From Myxococcales bacterium (lineage in GTDB: Bacteria > Myxococcota > Myxococcia > Myxococcales > Anaeromyxobacteraceae), in assembly GCA_038320275.1 (NCBI GenBank), contig JBBQEB010000147.1, positions 1 through 9,023 on the forward strand: a DNA stretch of 9,023 nucleotides, read 5' to 3'. The position numbers were made by a program. Positions 1-6,000 of the stretch are shown here, in pieces (the stretch's first letter is position 1; every line of letters begins with the position of its first letter).

Positions 1-3000
1 CTTCAAGCCCGGCGCCGCCTGGGGCTGACCGCGACCCTGGTGCGGGAGGATGGCCGCGAGGGAGACGTCTTCGCGCTCATCGGCCCCAAGCGCTACGACG
101 TCCCGTGGCGGGAGCTCGAGCAGCGCGCCTGGATCGCCACGGCGGTCTGCACGGAGGTGTGCGTTCCCATGTCCGAGGAGCGGCGCATGGAGTACGCGCT
201 GGCCGAGCGCCGCGCGCAGTTCCGCGTCGCCGCCGAGAACCCCGAGAAGACCGAGCACGTTCGCTCGATCCTGGGCCGATTCCCGCAGGGCCGAGCGCTC
301 ATCATCGGCGAATACCTCTCCCAACTCGAGCAGCTCGCTCTGGAGCTGTCGGCGCCGCTCGTGACCGGCGAGACGCGACAGGTCGAGCGCGAGCAGCTGT
401 ACGAGCGCTTCCGCCAGGGCGAGCTACGTCACCTGGTGCTGTCGAAGGTCGGCAACTTCGCGATCGATCTGCCGGACGCCGACGTGCTGATCCAGGTCTC
501 GGGCATGTTCGGCTCGCGCCAGGAAGAGGCTCAGCGGCTGGGGCGGATCCTGCGCCCCAAGGCGGACGGACGGACGGCTCACTTCTATTCGCTGGTCTCG
601 CGCGACACGCGTGAGGAGGAGTTCGCCCACCACCGGCAGCTGTTCCTGACCGAGCAGGGCTACGCCTACCGGATCGAGGTCGCCCAGGGAGACAACGGTC
701 CATGACAACCGCCAAGCACCCCCTGGATCTTCTCCTGCCGCTGCTCGACCCTGATGGCCCTGCCGTGCTCGTCGACGCCGCGTTCCTGGAGGTCGAGAGC
801 CTCGCGCAGCTCGTCGAGCTCAGCCGCGACCCTCGGATCGGCCGCCACCTGCTGGCGCGGCTCTCCGACACCGTGGCGCTCATCGACCCCGGCGCGGAGG
901 AAGAGCTCGTCAAGGCGCTGAGGGCTGCAGGACATACTCCCAGGACGGCAAGGGGGATGGAGTCGTGACCCGATCCAACCTGCCCTTCGTGCTTTCCGGT
1001 GCGTCCTCCAAGCTGGAGCTCGAGCCCGCAAGCCTCGATTCGGGCACCGCAAGGGTTGCCGCTCGGTTCTGGGCGGGAAAGCACGAAGGTTCGAGTGCCA
1101 AGGCCGCATGCGTCGAGCGCATCGCGGCCGCCTGGCGCGATCGGAAGCGAGTGGCCGAGGTCATGGCGACGCTCCGGCCCGAAGAGCAGGTGGTGCTGGC
1201 GGTGGTCAAGCGGTTTGGCGGCGCCATCTCCGGCGCGCTCCTCCAGCGGGAGCTTCTCGCCCGCGGTGTCCTCCACACGACCGAGCGCGAGGAGATGTTC
1301 CCCTATCGCCGCAATCGGCTGAGCGCGGACCCCGTGCTCGCGCTGTGCGAACGGCTCGTGCTCGTCAGGGAGCCTGGGTACTCCAGCTACAGTTCGTACG
1401 GCCTGCACCGCGAGTGTCCGAGCGTCTCCCTCCCCAGCCAGCTCGCCGCCCTCGTCGAGCCGGCCGCATCTCTCGGGTGGAAGGCCTCGGCGCCGGCGCA
1501 GGGGGTTCCGGAGTCGACCAGCGTCCGGGCGTTCGCCGAGGTGCTCGTCGATCTCGAGCAGACGGCGAGAGCACTCGAGGGGCAGCGCCGCTGGAAGGTG
1601 AACCAGGGCGGTGGCCTGCCCGCGGCGGCGCGAAACCGGCTGGCCAAGCTTCGCCAGCCGATCGCCGGTGACCCGTTCGACCCTCCCGACCGGGTCGCGC
1701 TGGACCACTCGCTGCTGTGCGCGCTGGGCGTGGTCGAGGTCGACGGGGCCGACGCATGGCTCGAGCGTGAGCGCGCGGACCAGCTGTTTCGCCGGCCCCC
1801 GGAGGGCCAGGCGTCGGCGTGGATCCGCGCCTGGACGACGCTGCGCCTCTGGCAGGACGGCATCGGCGCGGTCCCGGATCGCGACAACCGCGAGAACCCC
1901 ACGCGCATCGATCCCGACCGCCTTCGGAAGGGGCGAGCGCTGCTCGCGTGGGCGCTCACGCGCGTCGCCCATGGCGACGAGGACTGGCTCGATCTGGAGA
2001 CGTTCCTGCTGGACCTCCACGCCGCCTCGGGCGAACGCGGCCTCTCGTTCTACTGGCACGGCTTCGCGTGGCAGCCGCGCTTCGCCGCTGCTGCCGGCAA
2101 GGATCTCGGGCGGGGGCCGGAACGCACGCGAGCCCTCTGGATGGACGAAGAAGGCGTGTGGGCGGCCAACGCGCTGCTCTCCACCTTCGTGTACCTGGGC
2201 GTCGTGGAGCGGGGTCGCAGCGGCGGGGCGCGCTCCACCCGATGGAGTCTCCGCCTGACCGACGTCGGCAAGGCGGTCTTCGGCGCTCCCGAGTTGGGGT
2301 TCAAGCGGGCCGGCGGTGCCGTACAGTGCCTCACGGTACAGCCGAACCACGAGGTCCTGCTGTACCTCGACGGCGCCGACGGAGAGGCCGTCACGACGCT
2401 CGGGCGGATCGCCTCGCGGGAGTCCGCTGCCGGGCTCGTGCAGACGTTCAAGCTGACGCGCGAATCCGTCTACCGTGCTCTCGAAGGGGGGATGACCTCG
2501 ACGGCGATCGAGTCATTTCTCTCCTCGCGGAGCCGCAACGCCCTGCCGGTGAACGTGTCCCACTCGCTCGCCGAGTGGTCGCGCAAGCGCGAGGCCCTCG
2601 TCGTCCGGAGCGCCGTGGCCCTGGGAGTGGGCCTCCCCGACGGCCAGGGTGTCCTCCGCGGAAGGTCAGTGAGCGCGCAGTTCGTCGTGGCGTCGCAGCG
2701 TGCGGCGAGAAACGGAGCGAAGGACCTCGGCGTCTCCGCAGAATCGGTGACCGCGAGCCAGGAGTGGAGGGTCGATGAGCGGGGGGTGGTGTCCCCTGGC
2801 AATGCGATGTCCCTCATCGGCAAGGCCCGGCTGCGGCGGTTCGCCAGCCTCGCCGAGGGGAGGTGGCAGATCACTCCCGAGTCGGTGCGGGCAGCGCGCG
2901 AACTGGGGATCTCCGTAGATCAGATCATCGGCTGGCTGGGAGCCCACTCGAGTCGCGACGTGCACCCCGTACTTGCGACCGCCATCCGGAACTGGGTCGA

Positions 3001-6000
3001 CGGGCGCGGCGGGGTCTTCCTCGGAGAGGTCATCCTGCTTCAGGTCGACGATCCGGAGGCGTTCGACGCACTTCGCCGAAGCGAGCGGCTCGGGCCGCTC
3101 CTGAACGGCACGCTCGCGCCTGGTTGCTTCGTCGTGGCCGCGGAGGCGCGCAAGGAGGTGGCCAAGCTCCTGCGCGACCTTGGGTTCTCGATCGACTCCA
3201 AGTGCAAGTTGGCGCCGGTGAGTGAAGCTCCGCGAAGCCATGACGAGCTCGCACTCGCAGGCGTGGTTCGATGACCGACAGAGGCGAACCGAAAGAGGGC
3301 GATCGTTCGGCCGCGAGCCCGGAGCAGCCGGGACATGGCGGGGTGCAAGCGGTCACGGCGCTCCTCGGGAATGACGCTGGGAGGGAGCCGCTCCTCGCCT
3401 ACCTTCAGCTTCCGGCGCGCGAGCGGAGCGAGGTCCGTGAGGCCCTTCGGCTGGAAGTGCTGGAGTGGCTCGAGGAAGCTGCAGCACGCGTCGACGCGGA
3501 CAGTGCGGTCGCGGCGGTGCTCGCGCTGCGCAGCGTGCAGTCGTTCCCAGCGGATCGCGTCCTCGCGACGCTGTCGCCCGCGAGGAAGCGCTGGCAGGAA
3601 TGCCGGTGGCAAGCCGTGAAACGGAGCGTGGTCGGGCGGAGGCGGCGGCCCGGTCGGCGAGCCGCCCGGGAGACGCTCTCGATCAGGTGGAGGCCAAGCT
3701 TCGGGCGGGAGACCTGACCACGGCGCGCCGAGCGATGGCCGCGGCGCGCGCGCTGGCCGGGCCGGAGGAGATGGGGCGGGCCGAGGTTCTCGAGAGGCAG
3801 CTCGCCTCGCGCGAGCGGCTCGAACGGCCGTCGGCGTTGTACGCGGCGGCCCTGGCTCGAGGAGACTCGCTCGCCGCGCGCAACCAGGCCACGCTCGCCG
3901 CCGGACTGGCGGAGGGAGACGAGGGGAGTGCCTGGCGAGCACGCTCGGACGAGCTCGCCCGCAGGGTCAGGATCGAGTGGCGCCTCGGCGAGGTGGAGCT
4001 CGACGAGGACGTGACAGGATCGCGGCTCGCCGACTGTGCCGACCTGCTCGACCCCAGCTCACCGCTCCCCGGGCCGTTGCTCGTGGAGGGGGCGGAGAGG
4101 GCGGCGTCCCTGGTGCTCGTGTCGGTGTTCGGGCGTTGGGTCTTCGTGCGTGAGGTGGATGTCGAGCGCCGGCGACTGCGCCGCCTCGGCTGGCTGCGCG
4201 CGCCGAGCCCACTCGCAGAGCCGACGATCCAGGTAGACGGCGGCTCCATCCACATCGTGGGCTGGGACGGCGAGATTCTTCAGCTCTCGCGCAGCCCTCT
4301 CGGCGTGGTCCGATGGCTCTCCGTCCGCGCCTTCATGCTCCCTGACCGCGGAATCGACGACGCGCTCGTCGTCGCGCCGGGCCGCTATCTCTGGGCGCAG
4401 CTCAAGGAGCCCGACGGGGAGTACCCCATCGCGGTCATCGACCTCGAAGAATGGCGAGTGTGCGGGCGCGTGCACCGAGCGTTCGGTTTCGATCCAGTCC
4501 CCGGCGCGAAGCCGACGCTCATTCTCGTCACCCGAGGCGAGGGAGAGGAGGACTGGCTCTGTGACGAGCGCGGCGCCAAGATCGACTGGGAGTTGCCTGC
4601 CGATGTCTCCACCAAGGTGATGGTGGCGCATCCCGACGGGGAAGGCCTGGTCGCGCTCGTCGGATTGGAGGAGGGCGAGGAAGACGAGAGCGGTCCTCTC
4701 GCGGTGATGGAGCTGTGCTCCGGAAAGTTGGCCGCGAAGCCGCTGGTGATCGAGGCGACCGATCACGAGCAGCAAGCCACGCTCGCGGTCTCGCTCGAGC
4801 AGCGGCGAGCCTGGCTGTTGACGCACATCGAGGACCAACGGCGTCTCATCGCCTTCCGGCGGGGCGAATCGGGTGGGCTCGAGCAAGCCTGGTCCGTCGA
4901 GGTCCCGGGTAGTGCGTCCCTCGTCCGTGACCACCAGAGTCGGAACGTGGTCGCCCTCACGCTCTCGCCCCGAGGGCTGGACGCGGAGGTCCTGGGACAG
5001 CTGCCCGCGCGGATCGAGCCGGCCCCTTCGACCTTCATCGACCTGCGCCCGGCGGCAGTTCCCTTCTTCTCCTGCTGGCCCGGCAGCTCGGAGGCGGCTG
5101 ACGTCACCGTCTGGCACGAGCGGTGGAGGCGACGCGAGGAGGGCACGCTCGCGCGACGCGTCGAGGTCTGCCGCAAGGAACGCCGCGCTGATCCGGCTGC
5201 TCTCGCCGGGCTCGCGGGCACGCTGCTGAACCTGGGAGAGGGAGATCTCGCCGACGGGGTCCTCCGGCACGCGCTGGATCGGCACGCGGGTCATCCGCTC
5301 TTGCGGATCGGGCGCGCCGAGCTGGAAGCCTGCCGGGACCGCTGGGACGACGTCGAACGCTCGCTCGTGGGGATCGCGACCGAAGAGCTCGCGCTGCGAC
5401 ATGCCTGTCACGTGCACCACCTGCGGGGCCTCGCCCGGCTCCACTCTGGGGACGCCCGGGGGGCCCGCGAGCAGTGGAGCGCGGGAGCCTGCTCGCAGGC
5501 GACCTGTGCCACGTGGACTGGAACCTCGATCTCGCTTGCGCGCTGCTCGAGCCGCTCGACGAGGAAGAGCAGCAGGCGGAGGGATCGGCGCTGCGTCGAG
5601 TGGTCCGCGCGTGTCGGCTCGCCGATGCCTGGACCGAGCGCGGTGATCACGCCAGGGCTCGCGATGCCCTCGAGATCCCAGCGGTCCACGCCCGGATCGA
5701 GCTGCAGAGCGCCGCTCGGCTCGCCGAGGCGCACCTCGCGCTCGAACCGACCGACGCACACGGCGTGTTCCGGAAGGCCGTGTCGCTCGCCAGGTTTGCG
5801 AGCGCCGACCACGGAACGCGAAAGAGCTGGCCCCAGGAGATCCCGGGGCTCGGCTGGGCCCCGGAACGGCTGACCGCGATCGCGGCGCGGGCACAGGAAT
5901 GGCTCGAGGAGCTCAGCCGGCCAGGGGACGAGGGGGAACCTGCTGAGCCGTTGACAGTCGGTGACATCGCAGCTCCTCCTCCCGGGCTGGCCGGCGAGGA

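What a model noticed while it worked through the whole genome (the two positions that open the first line are those of the whole stretch)
1..3274. Bacterial XPB operon encodes p52/Tfb2-like and p8-like partners (TFIIH-type module)
Directly after the XPB helicase gene (g03019; its first half is g03596 on C235, the two contigs abut with about 22 codons missing) lie an 88-aa gene (g03020) and a 769-aa gene (g03021) whose predicted fold matches the TFIIH subunit p52/Tfb2 over its whole length, and the small protein is a profile-level copy of the p52-like protein's last domain, as p8/Tfb5 is of p52's. I read the three genes as a bacterial XPB-p52-p8 complex, the counterpart of the translocase module of eukaryotic TFIIH, in which the two partners hold and stimulate XPB. 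p52 and p8 are held to be eukaryote-only (archaeal XPB pairs with the nuclease Bax1), so this would move the origin of the TFIIH core module into bacteria a [...]
Evidence so far: AlphaFold2 model of g03021 from 28 homologues: mean pLDDT 79, pTM 0.67. Foldseek against PDB: the 13 best chains are all p52/Tfb2 of human or yeast TFIIH (8ebs_D E 3e-8, 6nmi_D, 6trs p52-p8 crystal; 440-620 aligned columns), then XPB N-terminal domains; 32 matches at E<=1e-3, all TFIIH. [...]
(Added by a program. Inside this text positions count along the whole contig: contig position 1 is position 1 of the stretch shown here. "Call 12" and the like, gene names such as g00115 and contig names such as C1 are that model's own, and its searches are not shown. 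The text may have been shortened before it was handed on; [...] marks where a part breaks off. The agent that wrote the report below was given it as the finding of a first reader that could run no searches.)

Follow-up and report, generated by a model that had tools for sequence, protein, structure and literature searches.

The report
Bacterial XPB with p52/p8-like partners
This bacterial operon couples the DNA motor XPB to a relative of p52 and to a small protein predicted to fold like p8, the two subunits that hold and tune XPB in the human repair and transcription factor TFIIH; the three likely form a similar complex, although p52-type partners had been reported missing from bacteria.

The parts
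1..705 (+). XPB helicase/translocase, C-terminal half (second RecA domain); the N-terminal half with clutch-like NTD, DRD-like domain and Walker A lies on contig C235
702..968 (+). 88-aa protein, one free p8/Tfb5/DRD-like domain (residues about 23-83)
965..3274 (+). 769-aa p52/Tfb2 homologue with a duplicated clutch + p8-like module
995..1474 (+). N-terminal winged-helix region (aa about 11-170), position of the p52 NTD; fold is generic
1478..2290 (+). MD1-like domain (aa 172-442), aligns on Chaetomium p52 122-319; also resembles BrxA
2315..2599 (+). clutch domain 1 (aa 451-545), likely XPB-binding; VQPN motif aligns on p52 VETN with Q459 at E310
2600..2737 (+). degenerate first p8-like domain (aa 546-591), low model confidence
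   Evidence: aligned on p52 C-terminal domain; clear p8-like hit at this position in L080, L100, L101
2750..3010 (+). clutch domain 2 (aa 596-682), absent from eukaryotic p52
3014..3199 (+). C-terminal p8-like domain (aa 684-745), candidate partner of the small protein

Best explanation
The operon encodes XPB, a p52 homologue and a small protein predicted to have the p8 fold, which likely assemble into a TFIIH-type motor module: the p52-like protein would dock a clutch domain on the matching N-terminal domain of XPB, and the small protein would pair with its C-terminal p8-like domain. By analogy with the 'collar' or 'lunate ring' of TFIIH, these domains would brace the two RecA lobes and set XPB's ATPase and DNA-translocation rate, while the winged-helix N-terminal half would contact DNA or recruit another factor. 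Shown: the genes, their coupling, conservation and sequence homology to p52. Predicted: the folds and the XPB contact (weak). Inferred: which clutch binds XPB, the small protein's partner, ATPase control and the cellular role, most likely an accessory DNA-opening or DNA-scanning activity beside the normal UvrABC pathway. My odds: p52 homology 0.9, XPB binding 0.75, p8-like pairing of the small protein 0.55, ATPase control 0.55.
For: Profile A7 (51 bacterial XPB-neighbour segments, no XPB, no eukaryote) finds human p52 first among 177,635 PDB sequences, E 1.1e-13, one continuous stretch over p52 262-446 (end of MD1, clutch, C-terminal domain), ahead of XPB (1e-8). The reciprocal profile of bacterial XPB N-termini finds XPB at 5e-21 and no p52 at E<=1. 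Foldseek-free search of 48,161 chains: the four best rows are XPB NTD, p52, N-terminal half of p52 and Tfb2. Model 172-442 aligns on p52 122-319, the published MD1 limits. Small protein: ten best Foldseek rows are p8/Tfb5 (E 0.12-0.83); a wider profile matches Tfb5 6-54 without gaps (E 0.046); among bacterial classes it is closer to partner C-terminal domains (E 1e-17, 5e-15) than to XPB's second domain (6e-13). Context: clutch neighbour at 51 of 80 XPB loci, 18 of 23 with 3 kb on both sides; small gene with 8 of 9 two-module partners and 1 of 42 one-module partners, that one cut by a contig end; 10 of 10 tested genomes whose cassette is away from XPB hold a strong XPB-type PF13625 match elsewhere. 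Complex model: score 0.36, best of 3 controls 0.00 (including replacement of the p52-like chain), contacts agree at least 88% between runs, partner pLDDT at least 87; the mark was reached by 116 of 157 solved complexes and 2 of 215 mismatches, but at 0.60 or under by only 18 of the 157 and by both mismatches. Mechanism by analogy: PMC6422496 section 8, PMC7708078 abstract and section 15, PMC10183003 passages.
Confidence: 0.62

Rival explanations
1. The large protein is a p52 homologue and binds XPB, but the small protein is an independent free copy of the shared p8/DRD-like domain. It may cap the decayed first p8-like domain, bind XPB's own DRD-like domain or bind DNA, and eukaryotic p8 arose by a separate duplication.
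For: It matches XPB residues 106-166 nearly as well as the partner's last domain and aligns best on XPB's DRD-like domain. It occurs almost only with two-module partners, whereas eukaryotic p52 has one module and the bacterial one-module partners, which are closest to p52 in layout, had no free copy in 41 of 42 loci.
Against: Foldseek and the wider sequence profile rank p8/Tfb5 above XPB; class profiles place it nearer to partner C-terminal domains; it sits directly before the partner gene even where XPB is elsewhere.
Confidence: 0.35
2. The complex forms but works as a mobile DNA-scanning or defence machine: the BrxA-like middle domain reads DNA and XPB is its motor. The likeness to TFIIH is then one of parts and not of job. 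This can hold together with the main reading.
Confidence: 0.25
3. The two clutch domains pair with each other inside the large protein, so it does not dock on XPB; the gene linkage reflects descent by duplication of XPB's N-terminal module.
For: Residues 610-745 are colinear with XPB 20-163 (hhalign 96.6%, E 6e-10). At least 14 of 45 loci have 5.5 kb or more upstream without XPB.
Against: One-module partners without a second clutch are the commoner XPB neighbours (42 against 9 loci). Clutch 2 is closer to partner clutches than to XPB's. The complex score falls from 0.36 to 0.00 when the large protein is replaced.
Confidence: 0.12

Closest known systems
XPB-p52-p8 submodule of eukaryotic TFIIH (human ERCC3/GTF2H4/GTF2H5; yeast Ssl2/Tfb2/Tfb5; PDB 6NMI, 6TRS, 3DOM)
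   Same: XPB with a clutch-like NTD; a partner with the domain order NTD, MD1, clutch, p8-like C-terminal domain and sequence homology to p52 262-446; a small single-domain protein of the p8 fold.
   Different: A second clutch + p8-like module; first p8-like domain decayed; Gln at the E310 position; no XPD, p44, p34 or p62 gene seen nearby; patchy, partly mobile distribution; binding and function untested.
Bacterial 'helicase-associated domain-containing proteins' (Pfam PF13625; with WYL, class J of PMC6789036)
   Same: Same database label; same clutch domain; N-terminal halves are related between several subfamilies.
   Different: No WYL domain here; two modules and a free small protein. The passages read do not link these proteins to XPB or p52.
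Archaeal XPB-Bax1
   Same: XPB encoded with, and regulated by, a neighbouring partner (PMC13024598 passages).
   Different: Bax1 is a nuclease that binds XPB's thumb and HD2; no Bax1 chain was among the rows shown in the fold searches and no nuclease family matched.
BREX BrxA / SspB DNA-binding fold
   Different: Weaker than the p52 match; no BREX or Ssp context seen; no PADLOC hit.

Membership tests
XPB/ERCC3/Rad25 | SF2 helicase core with XPB-specific C-terminal domain and N-terminal clutch-like domain | tested here: met
   PF16203 165 bits over cut-off 27; PF13625 120.7 bits on C235; Walker A and RED motifs present; gene split over two contigs
p52/Tfb2 | clutch (MD2/HubA) followed by a p8-like C-terminal domain | tested here: met
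   [not shown]
p52/Tfb2 | MD1 domain before the clutch | tested here: met
   [not shown]
p52/Tfb2 | N-terminal domain (residues 1-120) | tested here: inconclusive
   some p52 alignments start at model residue 7-12, but unrelated winged-helix proteins match as well
p52/Tfb2 | Pfam Tfb2 or TIGR00625 curated cut-off | tested here: not met
   30.5 against 34.5 bits; 20 against 320.7 bits: a distant homologue, not a member by these eukaryotic models
p52/Tfb2 | binds the XPB NTD through the clutch | tested here: inconclusive
   weak model support, 0.36 against 0.00, no interface given
p52/Tfb2 | modulates XPB ATPase; anchors XPB to p34/p44 of core TFIIH | not testable with these tools
   needs biochemistry; no such gene among 18 recurrent neighbour families scanned; genome not searched for p34/p44
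p8/Tfb5 | free single domain of the p8 / p52-CTD fold | tested here: met
   [not shown]
p8/Tfb5 | significant sequence match to Tfb5 | tested here: inconclusive
   E 0.046 over Tfb5 6-54; Pfam Tfb5 in 1 of 26 members, E 0.18; none with the narrower profile
p8/Tfb5 | heterodimer with the p52 C-terminal domain | not tested
   the one complex job scored XPB only

The most novel reading that the evidence does not exclude
Bacteria of many phyla carry a working XPB-p52(-p8) motor module, and XPB's N-terminus, p52's C-terminal half and p8 are all copies of one ancient 'clutch + p8/DRD-like' unit. The translocase lobe of TFIIH would then be of bacterial descent, and bacterial XPB, so far assayed alone, has been studied without its regulator.
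Probability: 0.4. Interest if true: 0.88.

Novelty: new variant of a known kind. Interest (0 to 1): 0.72.

Why it matters
[quoted passage not shown] A p52 homologue beside most bacterial XPB genes makes that question directly testable with two or three small recombinant proteins, offers a minimal model of XPB regulation (a site of XP and TTD mutations), and bears on where TFIIH came from. That p8, the p52 C-terminal domain and XPB's DRD-like domain share a fold suggests the XPB collar was built by duplication of one module.

Tried and rejected
Sequence search for p52 with the pre-clutch half alone: no p52 at E<=10, no Pfam Tfb2 in 51 members; the full-length one-module profile found only XPB weakly (E 0.08) and unrelated chains. 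ESM Atlas gave unnamed bacterial clusters only, and no structure search. PADLOC: no model for either partner. Conserved fourth gene: the most frequent other neighbour family recurs in 8 of 126 loci, and 18 representatives scanned were housekeeping, mobile or unassigned. 'Small ORF is spurious': rejected. 'The p52 hit is only the shared clutch': rejected, because the match runs through MD1's end and the C-terminal domain and the XPB profile does not find p52. 'Clutch 2 is a captured XPB N-terminus': less likely by class profiles, which depend on alignment depth. Archaea: PF13625 rang in none of the 4 archaeal control genomes; one haloarchaeal XPB-like locus had no partner hit; Asgard genomes could not be addressed. 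No phylogenetic tree was built. Earlier-findings look-ups by sequence and by place were empty. One paper that I recalled as a possible earlier mention (Iyer and Aravind 2012, J Struct Biol) is not held, so it is unchecked.

Full report
Observation. The window opens inside an XPB gene (1-705; PF16203 E 2e-48, NF045503 E 1e-115), followed by an 88-codon gene (702-968) and a 769-codon gene (965-3274), each overlapping the previous stop by four bases. The missing XPB half is at the end of contig C235; about 20 codons fall in the gap. The large protein has 126 homologues at E<=1e-3 among 7,994 scored candidates, the small one 318 among 370. In 45 genome loci fetched with the large protein's alignment (record titles name Myxococcales, Acidobacteriota, Planctomycetota and others), the small gene lies directly upstream in 42, the other 3 starting at a contig end; XPB is within the fetched stretch in 21 (19 upstream, 2 downstream). 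At least 14 loci have 5.5 kb or more upstream without XPB. Ten of these genomes were searched: all hold a PF13625 match of 128-147 bits in a 380-710-codon frame elsewhere, which I read as XPB from its score, and in 7 it has its own clutch-domain neighbour within 4 kb.

Architecture. p52 accounts for residues about 11-591. Residues 596-745 are a second clutch plus p8-like domain. In three relatives both modules carry a detectable first p8-like domain (L080, L100, L101); here it is decayed (pLDDT 57-72). A 620-aa one-module family aligns colinearly over 505 columns (99.2%). The pre-clutch domain defines a large family: 4,527 clusters at 50% identity with E<=1e-3.

Breadth. Of the 80 best XPB loci from a partial metagenome scan, 51 have a clutch-domain neighbour, 18 of 23 with 3 kb on both sides. 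The small gene accompanies 8 of 9 two-module partners, 1 of 42 one-module partners (cut by a contig end) and 2 of 29 loci with no partner seen. Kin are not independent, so no P value is given. Of 52 ORFs scanned, 14 carry a WYL domain. Named examples: Deinococcus sp. QL22 (XPB, 99-aa p8-like gene, 811-aa partner; a second clutch was not detected), Gloeocapsopsis dulcis and Paenibacillus cellulosilyticus (one-module partners). In the window's phylum PF13625 matches 12 of 201 genomes, 10 over the cut-off, and the large gene was not found with this query in 60 relatives, so it is probably acquired here. The genome keeps UvrB. A second, one-module p52-like gene lies directly upstream of XPB on C235, broken by one frameshift.

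Binding. One complex job folded residues 445-750, the small protein and XPB 3-170, scoring XPB. Verdict weak support: 0.36 (runs 0.36, 0.28, 0.46), best of 3 controls 0.00, contacts agreeing at least 88%, partner pLDDT at least 87. The mark was reached by 116 of 157 solved complexes and 2 of 215 mismatches, but at 0.60 or under by only 18 of the 157 and both mismatches; the job was unlike the calibration, and TFIIH is solved, so the pass may come from memory. No interface was given.

Mechanism. In TFIIH the p52 clutch and XPB NTD form a pseudo-symmetric dimer (PMC6422496, section 8); with the DRD and p8 they ring the RecA lobes, and p52/p8 activates and limits XPB's ATPase (PMC7708078; PMC10183003 passages). 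I infer the same here: clutch 1, the one contiguous with MD1, likely docks on XPB; the small protein likely pairs with a p8-like domain of the partner; the ring tunes the motor. The cellular job is open; the same paper found that XPB translocates only within full core TFIIH, whose other subunits were not seen near these genes. Rivals: an independent origin and different partner of the small protein (0.35), a defence or scanning role (0.25), intramolecular clutch pairing (0.12).

What is known. [quoted passage not shown] PMC6789036 (passages) notes Helicase C3 + WYL proteins without mention of XPB or TFIIH. PMC9557730, PMC9240713, PMC7408454 and PMC4012209 were seen as passages; PMC12839542 and PMC3417536 had no hit for TFIIH terms. 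Ten searches listed no paper that describes a bacterial p52 or p8; other listed papers were seen as listings only, the library lacks most subscription journals, and no supplements were opened (the alignment in PMC6422496 and the class lists in PMC6789036 could bear on this). That Rv0862c is the mycobacterial XPB neighbour is recalled, not checked. Databases already show weak PF03849 hits on many homologues. Eight earlier notes of this scan describe like modules on other genomes, two with the p8-like gene; one was later marked 'part of it fell', without detail. They are leads, not support.

Verdict. A real, conserved bacterial operon with a convincing p52 homologue and a plausible p8 counterpart; complex formation likely, function and direction of descent untested. 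New variant of a known kind; interest 0.72.

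Noticed in passing
L046 (G000:C235) about 925-2830, minus strand: A second, one-module p52-like gene directly upstream of XPB in the same genome, broken by one frameshift; so this XPB is flanked by both partner types. Could be an assembly error.
   Followed up: partly
window 7159-7464 (+): Decayed partial copy of the large gene (82% identical to 1601-1904, with gaps and a stop).
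   Followed up: partly
[not shown]
   Followed up: partly
L065 2457-4958: The small gene and the two-module partner lie in one open frame, a possible natural fusion.
   Followed up: no
window 3271-7147 (+): Overlapping long ORFs (3271-3717, 3465-5873, 5474-7147) without significant Pfam family follow the operon, coupled by another ATGA overlap; they may be one or two frameshifted genes.
   Followed up: no
window 7466-8445 and 8552-9023: A 128-aa unassigned gene, a pRiA4b ORF-3-like gene (PF07929) and an IS1634 transposase fragment: signs of a mobile region.
   Followed up: no
L046 3426-4028, minus strand: Two small ORFs that look like an addiction-module pair (judged from sequence; one weak PADLOC hit) upstream of the operon.
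   Followed up: no
L100 3550-8162; L075; L016: Loci with two different p52-like partners beside one XPB; one carries a SWIM zinc finger.
   Followed up: no
window 965-2299: ESM Atlas links the N-terminal half to clusters carrying PF27388 TP_0021_N (mostly Spirochaetota), scores 0.91-0.93.
   Followed up: no
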